Assembly: GCA_017557605.1 (NCBI GenBank)
Contig: JAFYYJ010000079.1
Location: 25,499-89,498, forward strand
Length of the DNA: 64,000 nt
Direction: 5' to 3'
Source of the DNA: Salinivirgaceae bacterium
GTDB lineage: Bacteria; Bacteroidota; Bacteroidia; Bacteroidales; SZUA-534
Shown here: positions 33,179-38,751 of the stretch, piece after piece
Position numbering within the stretch: position 1 is the first letter of the stretch
Layout of the letters: each line of letters starts with the position of its first letter
Notes under the pieces: generated by a model
Told to the model about the DNA's origin: nothing
Databases searched by the model: none
Seen by the model: the letters and a program-made list of their open reading frames with translations, nothing else
Program-made: the position numbers and the translations under genes

Positions 33179-33180
33179 TC

Positions 33181-34341
33181 TCACCTATTTCCCTTTGCCC
33201 GATTGTGCGTTTTGCAGAGCATCTGGCAATTTTTGATGTCGGTTGCTCCGCCACGGCTCCACGCTGTAACGTGGTCGGCGTCCATCTCTTTGAGTTGCCA
33301 AATTTTGGTTTTGTTATTGGTGTCCGATAATGCGCAAAGCGGACAGTTGCTTATGCCTTTTTCCTTTGCGTCGGCGGTTTGCTTTGCATATACACTTTTT
33401 ATTACGCTCGGCTCAAATAATCTGATATTCAACAGACTCTTATCAACCTCGCCTCCTAAAATATACTCGAAAATTCCCTTCTTGTCCTCAACGTAATCAT
33501 CGGCCATAAGAGTTTGAACACGCTCCGAAACTTTTGCTGGATTGTAGGCATTCTTGTGATAAAGTTCGTACATACGCCCCCACTCCAAACCACACATACT
33601 ACTTTCCACATCACTGAAAACTGATGATACCCAATTTATTACGGCATTGAAATACAACTTTAATTCGTTGATATTGTTGTCGTAACGATGCTGACTCATA
33701 TAACCGCTAACATCGTTGCTTTTGCTAACCCACTGCAACGCACGCTCAAGAATCTCTTGCCGCTTAACATCTCCTTTAATGTAAGCTTTCCATTTTGAGA
33801 CATTTGCGTTTTGTGAATTGCTAAACTCCTCTTTTGCAAGCGTTACAAATGGCCCTGAAAATATGGCGTTTAACTTTTCTTGCTCGTTAAGCGGCACGCC
33901 GACAATATTTATCGTTTTGAACCACTCTTTTATCTCTACTTCTGTTCCTTCGCATTCGTAAACTAGCAATTTGGTTTGCATAATCATTTCTTGCAGATTT
34001 GTTGCCAAACCGCTGAAATACTGCTCCATACCATTGATTTTTATGGCGAAATTTCCTTTTACAAAACGTCCGAGACTCGTTATTCGCTGCTGACCATCAA
34101 GCACTTCCAATTGGCCGCCATCAACCTTATTAAAGTATATTAAACCTAACGGATAACCTTTCAAAACCGATTCAATCACTGCCACATCTTTTTTGCCGTC
34201 GGCATAGATGTAATTGCGCTGATATTCAGGCTGAATTGTCAATCTACCCGAAAGTCCGAACAAACCTTTTCCTTCATATTCATTGTAAACAAATCCGTTA
34301 CAAATTTCCTCAATCGTGTATTGTTTTAATTCGGTTATCAT
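33181..34341 (-). CDS. DUF262 (ParB-like nuclease superfamily) protein with a C-terminal HNH endonuclease module
   Basis: [11 protein letters not shown] and DGQQRITSL (DUF262 signature). [23 protein letters not shown]-terminus CPLC...[32 protein letters not shown] (HNH). Lower GC than neighbours. Confidence 0.8.
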
Positions 34342-34358
34342 AGCGTTAAAATTTTGAT

Positions 34359-35492
34359 TTATTGTTTTTTACGAATCAATATTTTTGCATAGCAACTTAT
34401 CAAACGACCTGTTTCGTCTCTATAACATAGTTTACCACGACGAAAACCTTTATCTTCTTTGAATAAGCGCTTACAATCATCTGCCGACAGATTTGCGCTA
34501 ATGCCGTACGATATTCCTAATTCGCCACCATTACCAATTCCAACAATCTCAAATTGTTCAGGGCAATATTTTTCCAAAAATGTAATAGGCACCCCCATAA
34601 CACCATCATAATCAGACGGAATCGCGTCGGTATATGGTACCTCAATGGCGTCATAATTTTCATAATGAAAATACTTTCCACCTCGAACTTCTTTATGACT
34701 GCTAAATTTTATATTATCAGCCATACTCATCAATTGTAACGGTTGGTGACGGCGACCGTGGTCAATATTAGTAAACCAACAGGAAGCAACATTTGATAAT
34801 GAATCATTATCCTCGTTGGTTGGATTGGTATAAAACCACATTCCACCGCTCCATTCTGTTCGTCCCGCCCAAATTCTATTTGCTTTAATAAGAGGAAAAA
34901 CTTCTTTGTATGAAATACAGTTTTTGTTACCAATAATCAAAAATCTTTTATCTGTTTCCACTAACCACGCTAAAAACTCGCGAAACAGAGAAAATGGCGG
35001 ATTGGTTACGATTATGTCTGCTTCATCACGTAACAGTTTAACTTCATCGCTTCGGAAATCACCATCACCTTCAAGATACTGCCATTGCAAATCGTCGATG
35101 TCGATTTTTCCATTTGCATTAGTATCGTGGTCAAGCACAAATATTTTGCCGCAACGTTTCGATTTGTCAAGGTTGAAAAGAGGATTTTCGGTTTCAAAAA
35201 GTGTTGGCTGCCAATCGGTTTTATACTTTTTGCTTTCAACGGCGAAACTTGTGCTGATGAGTTTCTTTAATCCAAAATTTTCAAAATTTTGAGCGAAAAA
35301 CTTTGTAAAGTTGCTCCATTCAGGGTCATCGCACGGAAGTAAAATGGTTTTGCCACGAAACACATCAGGATTGTACTCCAAATAAGCATTTACTTCCTTC
35401 TGAATATCAGGATATTGTGTATAAAACTCATCATTTTGGGCTTTTTTGGCCACAACCAAGTTTGTATGCGCCATAGTGTTTAACTTGTGCAT
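34359..35492 (-). CDS. N6-adenine DNA methyltransferase (EcoRI-methylase-like family)
   Basis: [20 protein letters not shown] (NPPF motif IV). N-terminus [11 protein letters not shown] is typical of the EcoRI-methylase-type family as I recall it. 17-nt gap to the downstream nuclease gene. Start is ambiguous: GTG 35507, ATG 35492 or ATG 35474. Confidence 0.75.
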
Positions 35493-35547
35493 TGCACCAT
35501 TAAACACTTTGAAATCAGGCTATAAGAAAGGTGCGTACCTTCCTACT

Positions 35548-35719
35548 CGCGTTCACGGGGAAGCCTGAGAAGAAACCCCGCCCACACCGTATAGTCTGGC
35601 CGCACCAAGCGGTACAGACTACTACACAGTGTGGAAAGGGCAACTCAAAGCCACCCGTGAACAATCAGCCTATTTCGGTTAAAAGAAATAGTTTCTCAGG
35701 CTTTTTCTTTTTGAACGCG
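35548..35719 (-). ncRNA. candidate structured RNA / 5' leader upstream of the MTase-nuclease pair (strand uncertain)
   Basis: Nested perfect helices: 35548-35555/35712-35719 (8 bp); 35561-35571/35693-35703 (11 bp); 35670-35676/35685-35691 (7 bp); composite hairpin 35582-35587/35629-35634 + 35592-35598/35615-35621 + 35600-35603/35609-35612. Alternative 9-bp pairing 35551-35559/35654-35662. No plausible coding potential. Minus strand was chosen from gene context. A U-tract after 35703 on plus leaves a plus-strand sRNA possible. Confidence 0.4.
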
Positions 35720-35780
35720 AATAACAGTCAATGCTGATTAATAATATGTTATACTCTCGCAAAATGCGGAAGCAATGAAA

Positions 35781-35788
35781 CAAAGATA
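35781..35788 (-). promoter_or_regulatory. possible -7 promoter box (TATCTTTG on minus) upstream of the structured element and MTase
   Basis: CAAAGATA on plus. This is the only TAnnTTTG match between the SNF2 stop (35830) and the MTase start. It would give a leader of about 270 nt containing the structured element. Confidence 0.3.
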
Positions 35789-35829
35789 AAAAAATGTTGG
35801 CTGACGGAATAAGTGGAAACAGGAAAAAA

Positions 35830-38751
35830 CTAATCAAACAATTCCATAATTTTCTCGGGCGAGAGATTCTTCAGTGGATTGTCGTTCGTTACAATTCCCG
35901 CCAAATCGTTTTTGTGATTTTGCAAGTTGATGATTTTTTCCTCAAGCGTATCGGCGGTTATAAACTTGTAAACAAACACGTTACGTTCCTGTCCGATACG
36001 ATAGGCTCTGTCAATAGCCTGATTTTCAACCGCCGGATTCCACCACGGGTCAAGAATGAAGACATAATCGGCTGAGGTAAGATTGATGCCGACGCCACCG
36101 GCCTTAAGCGATATTAAAAACACCTTTATATCGTTGTCAGTCTGGAATTTACGAATAACATCCTCACGGTTTTGTGTGTCGCCGGTAAGCATGGTAAACC
36201 CTATTTGGCGCTCCGTCAAATACTGCTCATAAAGCTCCAGATATTTTACAAACGAGCTGAAAACAAGCACTTTATGGTCTTCAGAAATGATTGTTTCCAG
36301 AACACGCGTAACCTCGTCAAATTTGGCCGAAGGCTCGTCAAAACCGGCTAATTTCGGGTGACAGGCAATCTGTCTCAACCGCATCAGCGACTTCAATACC
36401 AAAGCAGAGGTCTGCAAATCGCGCTGACCGCCAATATGTTGCAACAATTCATTGCGCATCTCTGATTTTTTCGCCTCGTAAAGCTGCTGCTGCTCGCGCT
36501 CCATGGTGCAGACGCGAATCTGCTCGGTTTTGGGCGGCAAATCGCTGGCAACCTCATTTTTAGTGCGCCGCAAGATAAAAGGCTCTATCATCGCTTGCAG
36601 TTGCGAGGCTCGATTACCATGCGGATTTCGTTCAATATAAGCAACATACTGCGATTTAAAATACTGCAAACTGCCAAGAAGTCCGGGATTCACAAAATTC
36701 ATCTGCGCCCACAAATCCGTCAGACTGTTTTCGACCGGCGTACCAGTCAGAATCAGCTTGTATTGCGAATGCAACTGCATGATTGACTGATAGTTTTTTG
36801 ATGTCGGATTCTTTATTGCCTGGCTTTCGTCGAGGATGATGTAATAGAACTGATAGCTGCCAAGCAACTCCACATCGTTGCGGGCAAGGCCGTAAGTTGT
36901 AATCACAATGTCGTAGGAGTTAAACACCGATGCGTTGTGAGCCCGGCTGTTGCCCAAATGTGGCAAAACACGCAGTTGCGGCGCGAACTTGTACACCTCA
37001 TGCAACCAGTTATGAATCAGCGACAAAGGCATTACAATCAAACTCGTGGGCCGATGCTGGGTTACGGACGGCTGCGGTGTGTCGAACAACGAAAGCTGGC
37101 CGGTTTTAGGAGGCTCAATGGTTGCGTCTGTTAACATATCCGACTGAGCGTCAAGCAATAAGGCAAGAGTTTGCAGGGTTTTACCAAGACCCATATCATC
37201 GGCCAGACAGCCACCAAAGTTGTTGGCTTTCAGCTGTTTCATCCAGTAATAGCCGGCAAGCTGATAAGGGCGCAATGTGGCGTTCAAACCTTGGGGCTTC
37301 TGAATTTTGGCGAAGTTGTTGGCATCGAACATTTTACACATCCGGTCGGCCTCATCGGAAACAATACCCGACTGGCGAATCAAGCCAAACATGTTCTTCC
37401 CAATCCGCATCTCGCTGCCCGCGCAAGTGCTATGGTAAAAAAGCGCCTGAAAACGCGAAAACCACTCATCGGGCAAAATGACAATAGTGCCGTCGGGCAA
37501 GGCGTACTCCCTGATATTGTGCAAGATATTATGACGCAGACGCACGAATTTTATCGAAAAGCCATTCAACTCAACAGCTCCATACAAGTCGAACCAATCG
37601 TTGCTAAGCTGCGCTTTCAGATTCAGCTCGATACGCCCAACGTAGTATTTCTGCTCGTAGAAACTTTGTTTTACGGTGAAACCCGAATTGGAAATGACAT
37701 CAGCCTTTTGATTTAACATGCTGATTATGTTATAGAACCGCGCGTCCTGTGCGTCCACGTCATTGGCTGGCGCATAATAATATATGCCGTCGGACGAAAC
37801 GAATCCTATTTCAGCAAGGCGGTCGGCGTATTGACGCTCCAAATCTTTCCGCCGCAATGTTTTGATAAACTGCACATTATCGCCTTCGTGCAGAAAATCG
37901 ACAAAAGCCCGCTCGCGGCTCGACGGCAAGACGGAATTGCTGCCATAGGCGAACTTCAAAACAAGCACAGGCCGGCCTTGTAGGTCTTCTTCAAGATTAA
38001 GCTGAGGTACAGGCGGCTCATTGTTTACCATAACATCGAAGCCAGTGGCGCGCACCTTGTAGTTTTTCACCACATTCAGTATAAACTTCTCAAAATAAAC
38101 AAGTTCGGTTTCTTTTCGAATGTGAATGAAATCGTTTTTCAGAAAAGGCTCGAATTTCTTGCTGTCAATGTCATCGAATCGATATAGTTCCTTGTTAATC
38201 ACCACATTACACGGTTCTTTATCGGTAATCACCATTGCTGTTTTGCCCTTCAGCTTGTCGTAATGGTCGCCATGGTCAATGGCAATGCGATAGCGGATGC
38301 CGTTCTCGTTGCGGTCGAAAAGGAAAAGAATGTGCGATTTCCCCTCAGCCACAGTCAGTTCGTTTTCGATATACATCTGCTCATACTTGAAATCCTTGAA
38401 AAAGAGGCGGATTTTGTGAGCGATGATTATCGACAGCATTTTTTTGAACCGTTGTTCAAGGTAAGGCCTAATGTGTGTCTCTACAAACTGCTTGTCGACA
38501 TGGCGCAAAAACTCGTGAGGTGGCTCCTTCGAGAACAACCGTGCAATGTAAATGTCATCAATAGCGGCGGTGTATTTCATCAGCTCGCGGTAATCGTCGC
38601 AAAAGCCTTCAACTTCCTGAATATTAATTGGTGAGGCTTTATCGATTACGGAATAGAACGACTCGCCCGAACTTGGCGTTATGACATACGGGATGAGCGT
38701 CACGCCAAATTTGCGATGATGAGTAACCGCTACTATCAGCTGCTTAGGCAT
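35830..38751 (-). CDS. SNF2-family DEAD/DEAH-box helicase
   Basis: LRPYQLAGYYWM, CLADDMGLGKTLQT, DESQAIKN, and helicase-C motifs (LISLKAGGVGINLTSADYVFILDPWWNPAVENQAIDRAYRIGQ). The ~480-aa N-terminal region is of unknown function. Confidence 0.85.
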   Translation of the reverse strand: MPKQLIVAVTHHRKFGVTLIPYVITPSSGESFYSVIDKASPINIQEVEGFCDDYRELMKYTAAIDDIYIARLFSKEPPHEFLRHVDKQFVETHIRPYLEQRFKKMLSIIIAHKIRLFFKDFKYEQMYIENELTVAEGKSHILFLFDRNENGIRYRIAIDHGDHYDKLKGKTAMVITDKEPCNVVINKELYRFDDIDSKKFEPFLKNDFIHIRKETELVYFEKFILNVVKNYKVRATGFDVMVNNEPPVPQLNLEEDLQGRPVLVLKFAYGSNSVLPSSRERAFVDFLHEGDNVQFIKTLRRKDLERQYADRLAEIGFVSSDGIYYYAPANDVDAQDARFYNIISMLNQKADVISNSGFTVKQSFYEQKYYVGRIELNLKAQLSNDWFDLYGAVELNGFSIKFVRLRHNILHNIREYALPDGTIVILPDEWFSRFQALFYHSTCAGSEMRIGKNMFGLIRQSGIVSDEADRMCKMFDANNFAKIQKPQGLNATLRPYQLAGYYWMKQLKANNFGGCLADDMGLGKTLQTLALLLDAQSDMLTDATIEPPKTGQLSLFDTPQPSVTQHRPTSLIVMPLSLIHNWLHEVYKFAPQLRVLPHLGNSRAHNASVFNSYDIVITTYGLARNDVELLGSYQFYYIILDESQAIKNPTSKNYQSIMQLHSQYKLILTGTPVENSLTDLWAQMNFVNPGLLGSLQYFKSQYVAYIERNPHGNRASQLQAMIEPFILRRTKNEVASDLPPKTEQIRVCTMEREQQQLYEAKKSEMRNELLQHIGGQRDLQTSALVLKSLMRLRQIACHPKLAGFDEPSAKFDEVTRVLETIISEDHKVLVFSSFVKYLELYEQYLTERQIGFTMLTGDTQNREDVIRKFQTDNDIKVFLISLKAGGVGINLTSADYVFILDPWWNPAVENQAIDRAYRIGQERNVFVYKFITADTLEEKIINLQNHKNDLAGIVTNDNPLKNLSPEKIMELFD

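What the first reader, a model, noticed from the sequence alone, without database searches (positions are those of the whole stretch)
35548..35719. ~170-nt multi-helix RNA-like element with mutually exclusive pairings immediately upstream of the MTase-nuclease pair
The 320-nt gap between the SNF2 stop and the MTase start is non-coding but unusually rich in perfect complementary segments.

Helices seen in the sequence:
- An outer 8-bp helix (35548-35555 / 35712-35719).
- An 11-bp closing helix (35561-35571 / 35693-35703).
- Inside these, a 7-bp hairpin (35670-35676 / 35685-35691).
- A 53-nt composite hairpin of 6+7+4 bp (35582-35634).
- GTTCACGGG (35551-35559) can alternatively pair with CCCGTGAAC (35654-35662). 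This competes with the outer helix and so forms a switch-like arrangement.

Strand:
- On the minus strand the element would be a 5' leader or ncRNA co-oriented with the MTase. The only TAnnTTTG box in the gap, at 35781-35788, lies upstream of it.
- On the plus strand the closing helix is followed by TTTTTCTTTTT, which is sRNA/terminator-like.

I could not match it to SRP, 6S, RNase P, tmRNA, SAM or TPP elements from memory. A dedicated structured RNA next to a nuclease/MTase module could be a regulatory leader controlling the timing of MTase versus nuclease expression, or a functional RNA partner. A single 11-bp inverted repeat within 200 nt is expected a few times per 64 kb by chance. The case rests on the number of nested helices in one short intergenic region.
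Basis: seen in the sequence. Interest (0 to 1): 0.7.

Follow-up and report, generated by a model that had tools for sequence, protein, structure and literature searches.

The report
Structured RNA leader of restriction-modification operon
The flagged stretch is the core of a roughly 300-base folded RNA leader, with its own promoter, that heads a small mobile restriction-modification gene cassette in gut and rumen Bacteroidales. It belongs to a conserved family absent from Rfam, and it can fold in competing ways, so it most likely gates expression of the methylase and nuclease genes.

Summary
The region folds far better than shuffled sequence (z -8.7 on the plus strand, -7.8 on the minus strand). 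It is not an isolated hairpin cluster. It is the centre of a ~300-nt 5' leader on the minus strand that runs from a Bacteroidota -7 promoter box (35781-35788) to the methyltransferase (MTase) ATG (35474).

The leader is part of a low-GC 2.6-kb cassette: promoter, leader, EcoRI-family MTase and DUF262-HNH nuclease. PADLOC calls the gene pair MTase_II plus REase_II. The cassette sits between SNF2 and a U32 peptidase gene, and a relative has the empty site.

I found homologous leaders directly upstream of the MTase in 43 of 80 metagenomic homologues, with about 10 more diverged copies. None occurred in 80 control loci. I also found one in front of an unrelated D12-methylase/FokI-type system.

Covariation supports P1, P2, P4 and a hairpin that occludes the start region. 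Complementarity with a few three-way changes supports competing pairings, including a U-tract helix whose 5' arm is the 3' arm of the apical hairpin.

The leader core is 95-96.5% conserved where four-fold sites are 50-70%. Metatranscriptome contigs cover the leader only.

No match came from Rfam 15, the two paper searches, or GenBank phage and PLSDB plasmid records.

Most likely it is a cis-acting two-state attenuator-type controller. Its signal is unknown.

The parts
35781..35788 (-). Bacteroidota -7 promoter box TATCTTTG (TAnnTTTG). The transcription start is predicted at about 35772.
   Evidence: A TAnnTTTG box lies within 110 nt upstream of the conserved 5' motif in 42 of 46 distinct family members, against 3.7% of control windows. 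Homology with the cassette in another genomic context (L086) begins at about 35794. The start site itself is inferred, not mapped.
35753..35773 (-). Small 5'-terminal hairpin GCUUCCGCAUUUUGCGAGAGU.
   Evidence: A hairpin at the same place with a different sequence occurs in L086, L093 and L116. Its role as a 5' stabiliser is inferred.
35720..35735 (-). Conserved single-stranded 5' motif M, AGCAUUGACUGUUAUU (family consensus AGCAUUNGCUAUUAUU). The overlapping AAUCAGC (35733-35739) can pair with GCUGAUU (35663-35669).
   Evidence: Near-invariant in alignments A2 and A4. In the major clade, M pairs with the 5' flank of the apical hairpin. That helix and A':T together are 96.6% paired. AAUCAGC:GCUGAUU is 86.5% paired in the window-type subfamily, with one change on both sides.
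35712..35721 (-). P1, 5' strand (UUCGCGUUCA). Pairs with 35546-35555.
   Evidence: In the major clade the homologous helix has four pairs with changes on both sides, for example one pair with CG 11, AU 7, UA 4, GC 2.
35691..35701 (-). P2, 5' strand (GCCUGAGAAAC). Pairs with 35563-35576. The inner GAAAC/GUUUC part is conserved in sequence.
   Evidence: Covaries across clades: GCCUGCA/UGCAGGC in L093, GUCUCGC/GCGAGAC in L097, GCCCACG/CGUGGGC in L101. Four pairs with changes on both sides in A4.
35670..35691 (-). P3 hairpin CUAUUUC-UUUUAACC-GAAAUAG. Specific to the window-type subfamily.
35654..35662 (-). X segment GUUCACGGG. Alternative partner of X' (CCCGUGAAC, 35551-35559). It competes with P1 and crosses P2.
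   Evidence: 98.6% paired in 8 sequences, with a U-A to C-G change in L093 at a position that also changes in P1. With X:X' the leader folds at -98.4 kcal/mol, against -97.0 with P1.
35576..35641 (-). P4, a long hairpin. Its lower stem is hypervariable but always paired. The apical part (35594-35619) contains A' (GGUGCGG, 35600-35606).
   Evidence: Alignment A1. RNAalifold on 8 sequences finds up to 5 of 8 sequences changed on both sides at single pairs. This stretch is 51-70% identical between close relatives, against 95-96.5% for the rest of the leader.
35546..35576 (-). 3' strands of P2 (35563-35576) and P1 (35546-35555), with X' (35551-35559) spanning the linker and the start of the P1 3' strand.
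35522..35544 (-). T segment: CGCACC (35530-35535) followed by the U-rich tract UUUCUUAU (35522-35529). It can pair with A' (GGUGCG, 35601-35606) or fold locally as AGGAAGGU-ACGC-ACCUUUCU (35525-35544).
   Evidence: A':T is 95.8% paired with two pairs changed on both sides in the window-type subfamily. Family-wide, the 12 nt before the U-tract pair with the 3' arm of the apical hairpin, with a median of 10 contiguous pairs, and 34 of 45 reach p<=0.05. In the window itself the helix has only 6 bp, the simple terminator scan finds nothing, and the A':T fold is 26 kcal/mol less stable than the minimum.
35475..35508 (-). Hairpin directly in front of the start codon (AGUGUUUAAU...GUUAAACACU). It occludes the translation-initiation region.
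   Evidence: The homologous hairpin GAUUGAUAGU...ACUAUCAAUC is 98.5% paired in 24 major-clade sequences. Occlusion of translation is inferred.
34359..35474 (-). EcoRI-family N6-adenine DNA methyltransferase gene (371 aa).
   Evidence: Pfam PF13651, E 1.4e-115. PADLOC MTase_II, E 2e-79.
33181..34341 (-). DUF262 (GmrSD_N)-HNH nuclease gene (386 aa).
   Evidence: Pfam PF03235 plus PF01844. PADLOC REase_II over its full length, E 2.6e-88. It follows the MTase in 62 of 63 loci with enough sequence.
33179..35794 (-). The whole low-GC cassette: promoter, leader, MTase and nuclease.
   Evidence: GC is 0.36-0.41 against about 0.49 in the flanks. In the 66%-identical relative L007 the SNF2 and U32 peptidase stop codons are 4 nt apart, which is the empty site. 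The same cassette lies in other contexts in L086, L093, L097, L101 and L105.

Best explanation
The element is the core of a cis-acting, multi-state 5' leader RNA on the minus strand. It travels with, and controls, a mobile Type II restriction-modification operon.

Shown:
- The cassette brings its own -7 promoter.
- The roughly 300-nt leader can form a long rod (P1, P2, P4). It can also form a two-domain alternative of equal energy.
- The 3' arm of the apical P4 hairpin (A') is also complementary to the segment (T) that directly abuts a U-tract about 50-60 nt before the ATG.
- A last hairpin buries the region in front of the start codon.

Inferred mechanism:
- The apical hairpin acts as an antiterminator.
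- When its 5' arm is captured, A' pairs with T and forms a terminator, and transcription stops before the MTase gene. In most relatives the captor would be the conserved 5' motif M, which mimics the opposing strand.
- Otherwise RNA polymerase reads through, and translation additionally depends on opening the start-codon hairpin.
- The leader would thus set or switch the joint level of MTase and nuclease, doing the job that controller (C) proteins do in other R-M systems.

The signal that selects the fold is not known. It could be a host or cassette protein, a metabolite such as SAM or SAH, or simply folding kinetics.

In the window's own copy the T helix is short (6 bp). Termination here may be weak, and the rod versus X:X' switch together with the start-codon hairpin may dominate.
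For: - Structure: z -7.8 and -8.7.
- Strand: G-U 50 against A-C 8 in the helices.
- Part of a mobile cassette: low GC, an empty site in L007, the same leader plus genes in five other contexts.
- Family and position: nhmmer hits directly upstream of the MTase on the same strand in 43 of 80 metagenomic homologues and in all closer ones. There were no hits in 80 SNF2 control loci or elsewhere in the window. About 10 more diverged copies were found with a P1/P2 descriptor.
- Own promoter: a -7 box in 42 of 46 leaders against 3.7% of controls.
- Covariation of the rod and the start hairpin: 92.9% paired, 12 pairs with changes on both sides, 0 of 500 shuffles reaching the observed value on four of five measures.
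- Window-type subfamily: RNAalifold recovers P1-P4 with 13 compensated pairs.
- Competing pairings: 96.6% paired against 19-52% when slid. One column covaries with both of its partners. In the window-type subfamily 94.2% are paired against 32-52% slid.
- U-tract helix: a median of 10 contiguous pairs to a site 58-79 nt upstream, significant in 34 of 45 leaders.
- Bistability: -97.0 against -98.4 kcal/mol.
- Purifying selection: leader core 95-96.5% identical, four-fold sites 50-70%.
- Transcription: rumen and gut metatranscriptome contigs cover the leader but not the flanking SNF2 gene. DNA runs cover everything evenly.
- Alternative controllers: leaderless homologues L173, L178, L179 and L186 carry XRE-type HTH genes instead, and no leader-bearing locus does.
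Against: - No experiment shows termination, read-through or a change of fold.
- RNA ends could not be mapped. Only assembled contigs were available, and their ends coincide with conserved/variable boundaries.
- The rod is 19-26 kcal/mol more stable than the A':T fold in the window, L116 and L140. The terminator state needs kinetic trapping or a factor.
- A':T could instead be an antiterminator of the small local hairpin. The polarity of the switch is undecided.
- In the window the T helix has 6 bp, is not significant on its own, and the simple terminator scan finds nothing.
- Covariation for the alternative helices is thin because the sequences are so conserved: 13-29 of 500 shuffles reach three of the five observed values and 339-476 reach the other two. 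In one search only 8 sequences were used, and 6 of them are close relatives.
- No effector is identified.
- About 13-20 of 70 homologous operons have no leader.
Confidence: 0.68

Rival explanations
1. Metabolite-sensing riboswitch. The rod and its conserved junction nucleotides would form an aptamer for a small molecule relevant to every R-M system, most obviously SAM or SAH. Ligand binding would choose between the two folds. This is a specific sub-case of the cis-regulatory reading.
For: - The layout resembles a riboswitch: a P1-closed multi-helix domain with a variable peripheral stem, followed by an expression platform.
- The leader core is extremely conserved.
- The same leader serves two unrelated SAM-dependent MTase families, EcoRI-like and D12. 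This argues against recognition of one particular MTase and for a generic signal.
Against: - No similarity to any SAM, SAH or other riboswitch in Rfam 15.
- Most invariant nucleotides are already explained by their taking part in two or three alternative helices, so no unexplained conserved pocket stands out.
- The region between P2 and P4 differs in architecture between clades: P3 is present in some and absent in others. That is unusual for an aptamer.
- Binding was not tested.
Confidence: 0.2
2. A stand-alone or processed small RNA that acts in trans. It would be, for example, an RNA partner or inhibitor of the nuclease in the manner of a type III antitoxin, or a regulator of host genes. The leaky terminator would only set the ratio of RNA to protein.
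For: - The order promoter, structured RNA, U-tract helix, protein genes is the layout of type III toxin-antitoxin loci (from my knowledge of ToxIN, not tested here).
- In metatranscriptomes the leader is seen where the coding region of the same strain is not.
- The sequence is very highly conserved.
Against: - The same leader precedes a FokI-type system that has no DUF262-HNH nuclease. It is therefore not a specific partner of this nuclease.
- There are no tandem repeats.
- The last conserved hairpin ends right at the start codon: at the base before the ATG in the window and 8-11 nt before it in L116 and L195. This points to control in cis.
- Competing helices linked to the U-tract are typical of attenuators.
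- Contig ends cannot show a discrete small RNA.
Confidence: 0.08
3. A DNA-level element rather than an RNA. It would be a recombination or insertion site of the cassette (attC-like folded single strand), a MITE-like palindrome, or a protein operator.
For: - The element sits at one end of a cassette that has sharp boundaries and no recombinase of its own.
- Both strands fold well.
- The start-codon hairpin arms are conserved in sequence, like an operator.
Against: - G-U pairs are strongly strand-biased, 50 against 8.
- There is no second copy in the window or in 80 control loci.
- The cassette boundary lies upstream of the promoter, not inside the element.
- The spacer between the conserved hairpin arms varies from 11 to 20 nt. 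That fits an RNA hairpin better than a dimeric operator.
- The helices are tied to a U-tract and a start codon, and the region is transcribed.
Confidence: 0.04

Closest known systems
Terminator/antiterminator transcription attenuators with three or more competing helices (E. coli trp leader; B. subtilis TRAP, PyrR and ribosomal-protein L20/L10 leaders)
   Same: - A long 5' leader with its own promoter.
- A helix abutting a U-tract shortly before the first gene.
- An upstream hairpin whose 3' arm is the 5' arm of that helix.
- Further mimic strands, giving a chain of mutually exclusive pairings.
   Different: - No leader peptide: no conserved uORF.
- No recognisable protein-binding repeats.
- The terminator helix would be long-range, with about 60-75 nt between its arms.
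- It occurs in Bacteroidota and on a mobile defence cassette.
- The effector is unknown and termination has not been demonstrated.
Controller (C) proteins of Type II R-M systems (C.PvuII, C.AhdI, C.Esp1396I)
   Same: - It occupies the position directly upstream of an R-M operon.
- It is mobile together with the operon.
- Homologous operons without the leader carry a small XRE-type HTH gene there instead: L173, L178, L179 and L186.
   Different: - It is an RNA structure, not a DNA-binding protein.
- It precedes the MTase and nuclease jointly, so by itself it cannot delay the nuclease relative to the MTase.
- Functional equivalence is inferred from position only.
Transcriptional riboswitches (for example the pbuE adenine or SAM-I riboswitches)
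   Same: - A P1-closed multi-helix domain with variable peripheral stems.
- A downstream expression platform that combines a U-tract helix with a structure at the start codon.
- Strong sequence conservation.
   Different: - No match to any riboswitch model in Rfam 15.
- No ligand is known.
- The internal architecture differs between clades.
Type III toxin-antitoxin loci (ToxIN)
   Same: The order of promoter, structured RNA, terminator, then protein genes on a mobile defence locus.
   Different: - No tandem repeats.
- The downstream genes are an ordinary MTase and restriction enzyme.
- The same leader serves an unrelated nuclease type.

Membership tests
Any Rfam 15 family | A covariance-model match at or near the gathering score | tested here: not met
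   In the window at 35300-36000 the best hits are eukaryotic miRNA or snoRNA models at 13-20 bits against gathering scores of 39-100. Six loci with leaders from other clades gave no hit on the leader.
Intrinsic-terminator attenuator | A stable helix immediately followed by a U-tract between the promoter and the first gene | tested here: inconclusive
   Family-wide the feature is met: a median of 10 contiguous pairs abutting a T-run, and 34 of 45 leaders significant. In the window itself there is only a 6-bp helix plus UUUCUUAU. It is not significant alone, and the simple scan finds none.
Intrinsic-terminator attenuator | An alternative structure mutually exclusive with the terminator | tested here: met
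   A' pairs either with A (the apical hairpin) or with T. The A':T and M:M' helices together are 96.6% paired, and column 164 covaries with both 155 and 253. The window-type A':T is 95.8% paired with two pairs changed on both sides.
Intrinsic-terminator attenuator | Regulated termination shown by 3' ends or read-through ratios | not testable with these tools
   Only assembled contigs of the RNA runs were available. Their ends coincide with conserved/variable boundaries.
Riboswitch | A conserved ligand-binding aptamer and demonstrated ligand binding | not testable with these tools
   There is no Rfam riboswitch match. Binding needs wet-lab assays.
Leader-peptide attenuator | A conserved short ORF in the leader | tested here: not met
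   ATG-initiated ORFs in the last 60 nt are absent or inconsistent in position, length and frame across 49 leaders.
Type II restriction-modification system (the cassette, not the RNA) | An adjacent DNA MTase and restriction endonuclease matching curated models | tested here: met
   PADLOC MTase_II at 2.1e-79 and REase_II at 2.6e-88 over the full length. The pair is kept in 62 of 63 loci.
C-protein-controlled R-M system | A small HTH controller gene next to the operon | tested here: not met
   There is no ORF between the SNF2 gene and the MTase gene other than short unconserved ones. HTH genes were found only in leaderless homologues.
Retron msr-msd RNA | An adjacent reverse transcriptase gene | tested here: not met
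   The ten neighbouring proteins have no RT domain. The flanking genes in related loci are an MTase and a nuclease only.
Type III TA antitoxin RNA | Tandem direct repeats processed by the toxin | tested here: not met
   Self-comparison of the gap finds no repeats beyond the inverted ones.

The most novel reading that the evidence does not exclude
This family would be the first RNA-only controller of restriction-modification systems. It would be a portable promoter, switch and terminator module that replaces the controller protein. It would sense a signal common to all such systems, for example the SAM/SAH pool that phage SAM-degrading enzymes attack, or a host factor. By this means it would decide whether MTase and nuclease are made.
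Probability: 0.3. Interest if true: 0.85.

Novelty: new variant of a known kind. Interest (0 to 1): 0.62.

Why it matters
Restriction-modification systems have to be expressed very carefully, because too little methylase or too much nuclease kills the host. The known safeguards are controller proteins, methylase autoregulation on DNA, and antisense RNAs.

A large, strongly conserved, multi-state RNA leader that moves with the genes from genome to genome would be a different solution. It can sit in front of unrelated R-M types, and it occupies the place where sister operons have an HTH regulator.

It occurs in a phylum (Bacteroidota) where few cis-regulatory RNAs are understood and where translation initiation works without Shine-Dalgarno pairing.

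If a ligand or protein effector exists, the family offers three things:
- a new sensor class;
- a handle on how gut and rumen bacteria tune defence;
- a compact insulating expression module for engineering Bacteroides.

The element is abundant in rumen metagenomes and metatranscriptomes, so material for testing is easy to obtain.

Tried and rejected
- **Repeat or MITE.** There is no second copy in the 64-kb window or in about 800 kb of control loci.
- **Native 3' UTR or terminator of SNF2.** Rejected. The closest relative has SNF2 and the U32 peptidase gene back to back, and the element travels with the MTase into other contexts.
- **Known RNA family.** There is none, and no tRNA or tmRNA lies there.
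- **First DNA pattern.** The pattern built from the 3' half gave only three chance hits in GC-rich viral contigs. I therefore spent the single metagenome scan on the MTase protein instead. As a result I have no gene-independent census of the leader.
- **Two further viral-contig patterns.** They found nothing, or only L195.
- **Start-hairpin pattern.** Seven of its eight hits were unrelated.
- **GenBank phage and PLSDB plasmid records.** No match.
- **Leader as a general feature of the D12/FokI-type system of L195.** It is not. Fifteen loci from three homologous protein clusters lack it.
- **Leader peptide or uORF.** Not conserved.
- **Specific autoregulation by the EcoRI-like MTase or the DUF262 nuclease.** Made less likely by L195, but not excluded.
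- **Literature.** Two full-text searches for R-M leader, attenuator or structured RNA returned nothing relevant.
- **RNA 5' and 3' ends.** Not obtainable, because all RNA runs were held as contigs only.
Full report
**1. The observation**

- the outer helix, 35548-35555 with 35712-35719, which extends to 10 bp;
- the perfect 11-bp helix, 35561-35571 with 35693-35703;
- the 7-bp hairpin, 35670-35676 with 35685-35691;
- the long composite hairpin;
- the alternative GTTCACGGG/CCCGTGAAC pairing.

Folding 35540-35725 gives -75.1 kcal/mol on the plus strand (z -8.7) and -85.0 on the minus strand (z -7.8). No shuffle out of 200 did as well on either strand.

**2. Context**

All the genes around it lie on the minus strand:
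- a SUI1 gene and an SNF2-family gene (35830-38751);
- the gap;
- an EcoRI-family adenine MTase (PF13651);
- a GmrSD_N/DUF262-HNH nuclease (33181-34341), which is followed by a convergent U32 peptidase gene.

PADLOC models call the pair MTase_II and REase_II, the nuclease over its full length. It is therefore an ordinary catalogued Type II R-M pair.

The stretch 33.2-35.8 kb has GC 0.36-0.41, against about 0.49 around it. In the closest relative found in the species-representative genomes (L007, SNF2 66% identical), the SNF2 and U32 stop codons are 4 nt apart. This is the empty site.

The flagged element is therefore not the native tail of SNF2. It belongs to a 2.6-kb inserted cassette.

**3. 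It travels with the MTase**

- Exact-protein look-ups gave the same arrangement in several rumen or gut assemblies.
- A sister lineage has an 85%-identical MTase in the same SNF2 context (L087-L092).
- The cassette also occurs in quite different contexts: L086 (MTase 93%), L093 (73%), L097 (71%), L101 (70%) and L105 (65%).
- BLAST shows that homology between the window and L086 starts at window position about 35794. That is just upstream of the -7 box TATCTTTG (35781-35788) and runs through to the genes.
- All the more distant cassettes have a recognisably homologous upstream region with compensatory changes in the main helices.

**4. Size of the family and specificity of position**

I used the single metagenome scan on an alignment of MTase homologues. 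It returned 80 loci with MTases 57-75% identical.

A profile HMM built from 39 leaders gave these results:
- hits directly upstream of the MTase, on the same strand, in 43 of the 80 loci and in every closer homologue;
- no hit in the 80 SNF2 control loci;
- no hit anywhere else in the window.

A simple descriptor for nested P1/P2 helices found all 40 positives tested. It also found about 10 further diverged leaders with the right geometry among the 30 profile-negative loci. Its false-positive rate on shuffled sequence was 19%. Roughly 13-20 of 70 operons seem to lack the leader.

The MTase and nuclease stay together in 62 of 63 loci.

A Bacteroidota -7 box lies within 110 nt upstream of the conserved 5' motif in 42 of 46 distinct leaders, against 3.7% of control windows. 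Each leader therefore has its own promoter.

**5. Anatomy**

Read on the minus strand in window coordinates, the leader contains:

| Feature | Window coordinates |
|---|---|
| -7 promoter box | 35788-35781 |
| Small 5' hairpin | 35773-35753 |
| Near-invariant single-stranded motif M | 35735-35720 |
| P1 | 35721-35712 with 35555-35546 |
| P2 | 35701-35691 with 35576-35563 |
| P3 hairpin | 35691-35670 |
| Linker containing X | X at 35662-35654 |
| Long P4 hairpin, with a hypervariable lower stem and a conserved apical part | 35641-35576 |
| T segment with a U-rich tract | 35544-35522 |
| Hairpin ending at the base before the ATG | 35508-35475 |
| MTase ATG | 35474 |

ATG 35474 is the likely start, not GTG 35507. 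It gives the conserved N-terminus MA.xNL, and the hairpin-ATG spacing is kept across the family.

**6. Evidence that it is RNA, and which strand**

*Major clade (24 sequences, alignment A4).* The rod helices and the start hairpin are 92.9% paired. Twelve pairs have changes on both sides, and 0 of 500 column shuffles reached the observed value on four of five measures. Slid controls are 27-38% paired.

In P4, up to 5 of 8 sequences differ on both sides at a single pair.

*Strand.* G-U pairs outnumber A-C oppositions 50 to 8 in A5. In A4 they do so by about 41 to 17, once the one non-pair column I had added is set aside. The RNA is therefore the minus strand, the sense strand of the operon.

*Selection.* Between the window and its relatives, the leader outside the variable hairpin is 95-96.5% identical. 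Four-fold degenerate sites of the MTase are 50-70% identical, and the variable hairpin is 51-70% identical. The leader core is under stronger constraint than the protein-coding sequence. The P4 stem drifts freely as long as it pairs.

**7. Competing pairings**

*In the window.* The fold with P1 and the fold with X:X' (a two-domain alternative) are within 1.4 kcal/mol, at -97.0 and -98.4. X:X' stays paired in relatives (98.6%). In L093 a U-A becomes C-G at a position that also changes in P1.

*Across the family.* A second competition is more prominent. The 12 nt that directly precede the U-tract (T) are complementary to the 3' arm (A') of the apical P4 hairpin, which lies 58-79 nt upstream. The median is 10 contiguous pairs, and 34 of 45 leaders are individually significant against shuffles.

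In A4, A':T and a further helix between motif M and the 5' flank of the apical hairpin are together 96.6% paired, against 19-52% when slid. Column 164 covaries with both of its partners, 155 and 253.

In the window group the same three-way pattern is seen among near-identical leaders:

| Sequences | A | A' | T |
|---|---|---|---|
| Window | GUACC | GGUGC | CGCACC |
| L088 | GCGCC | GGCGC | CGCGCC |
| L086 and L087 | wobble intermediates | | |

Motif M has almost the same sequence as the strand it would displace, and A almost the same as T. This is a chain of strand mimics typical of attenuators.

A helix that abuts a U-tract is how intrinsic terminators are built. I therefore read A:A' as the antiterminator and A':T as the terminator.

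Caveats:
- The rod is 19-26 kcal/mol more stable than the A':T fold. The terminator state needs kinetics or a factor.
- The polarity could be the reverse, with A':T acting as an antiterminator of the small local hairpin.
- In the window itself the helix has only 6 bp, and the simple terminator scan finds nothing.

**8. Transcription**

Four gut or rumen RNA runs contain contigs of 151-181 nt that match window 35562-35742 with 1-2 differences. They show nothing over the adjacent SNF2 gene.

Four rumen metatranscriptomes cover the leader of L116 (1708-1969) at depth 11-25, and up to 230 over its conserved 5' part. They show nothing at 92% identity or more upstream of the promoter, and almost nothing in the coding region.

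DNA runs cover the whole window stretch evenly. The RNA signal is therefore not DNA carry-over.

All RNA runs were available only as assembled contigs. Their ends fall at conserved/variable boundaries, so neither the strand nor the true 5' and 3' ends can be read from them. The data show that the leader is expressed and is more abundant than its flanks. They do not show termination.

**9. What the effector is not**

- A scan of viral contigs for the start-hairpin motif found one true family member, L195 (profile E 1e-53). There the hairpin ends 11 nt before the ATG of a D12-class adenine MTase. That gene is followed by a second D12 MTase and a FokI-type recognition-domain gene. The leader is thus portable between unrelated R-M types. 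This argues against a specific RNA partnership with the DUF262 nuclease and weakens specific autoregulation by the EcoRI-like MTase.
- The leader is not a general feature of that other system. Fifteen loci from three homologous clusters lack it.
- No conserved uORF exists.
- Four leaderless homologues carry XRE-type HTH genes next to the MTase: L173 directly upstream on the same strand, L178 and L179 divergent, L186 further off. Relatives of these HTH genes occur in none of the leader-bearing loci. This fits the idea that the leader and a controller protein are alternative solutions. That equivalence is an inference from position.

**10. Comparison with what is known**

There is no match in Rfam 15 for the window or for five other clades. 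Nothing turned up in GenBank phage or PLSDB plasmid records. Two full-text literature searches gave nothing relevant.

In working principle the element resembles multi-helix transcription attenuators and riboswitch expression platforms. In position it resembles C-protein control of R-M operons. It is a member of none of the catalogued families.

After I had reached this reading, I looked up earlier notes of this scan. They describe the same leader family in other genomes and draw similar conclusions. They are AI notes, not independent evidence. I tested two of their claims in part:
- that the leader occurs in front of other R-M types (one case, L195);
- that HTH genes occupy its place in sister operons (four cases).

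**11. Verdict**

The best explanation is a cis-acting, two- or multi-state leader that gates a mobile R-M operon by attenuation and by occlusion of the start region (confidence about 0.68). The sensed signal, the polarity of the switch and the strength of termination in this particular copy remain open.

**12. Limits**

Noticed in passing
window 35576-35641, compared with L001 and L086-L089: The lower stem of P4 differs at most positions between cassettes whose remaining leader is 95-96.5% identical, yet it always pairs. Divergence there (51-70% identity) is about that of four-fold degenerate sites. It looks like neutral drift under a pairing constraint rather than targeted diversification, but this was not examined further.
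   Followed up: partly
L195:938-3445 (IMGVR_UViG_3300029478_000016): A major-clade leader (nhmmer E 1e-53) sits in front of two D12-class adenine methyltransferase genes and a 120-aa FokI recognition-domain ORF. Fifteen homologous FokI-type operons elsewhere lack the leader. The module therefore seems to have been recombined onto a different R-M system once.
   Followed up: yes
L173:1735-1998(+), L178:1513-1863(-), L179:1563-1886(-), L186:893-1252(-): EcoRI-like MTase/DUF262-HNH operons without the leader carry XRE-type HTH genes next to the MTase. No relatives of these genes occur in the 43 leader-bearing loci. They are possible controller proteins replacing the RNA.
   Followed up: partly
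window 35474 versus 35507: The ORF list starts the MTase at GTG 35507, and gene callers in other assemblies chose starts giving 377-393 aa. The conserved N-terminus and the conserved hairpin-ATG spacing point to ATG 35474 (371 aa).
   Followed up: yes
alignment A4, columns 274-281 and 290-296 (for example L116:1945-1975): Downstream of the U-tract, many leaders carry a second partial copy of A' (GGCGUGAU). It overlaps the 5' arm of the start-codon hairpin. They also have a conserved UGC(A) in that hairpin's loop. Both are complementary to T. After read-through, T might open the start hairpin and so couple the two control layers. One subclade lacks the TG of this copy.
   Followed up: partly
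window 33179-35794: The cassette has very tight boundaries. It begins about 6 nt upstream of its promoter box and ends at the nuclease stop codon, 2 nt from the convergent U32 peptidase stop. It has no recombinase, and I did not look for terminal repeats. How it moves is unexplained.
   Followed up: no
DNA run X5 laid on window 35470-35770: In a bovine gut metagenome, the conserved parts of the leader have 2-4 times the depth of the flanking genes. Loose ends lead into other sequences. Several different family members therefore coexist in one community.
   Followed up: no
L101:7561-7669: A Bacteroidales small SRP RNA (RF04183, 94 bits) lies about 2.5 kb downstream of that cassette. It is unrelated to the finding.
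   Followed up: no
L197-L201:890-3363: ISL3-family and DDE_Tnp_1 transposase genes lie immediately upstream of the leaderless D12/FokI-type R-M operon. On its other side, at the 3' edge of each locus, is a further N6_N4 MTase gene. Two R-M genes (RE_endonuc or RE_HaeIII) lie further upstream. Together they form a defence island.
   Followed up: no
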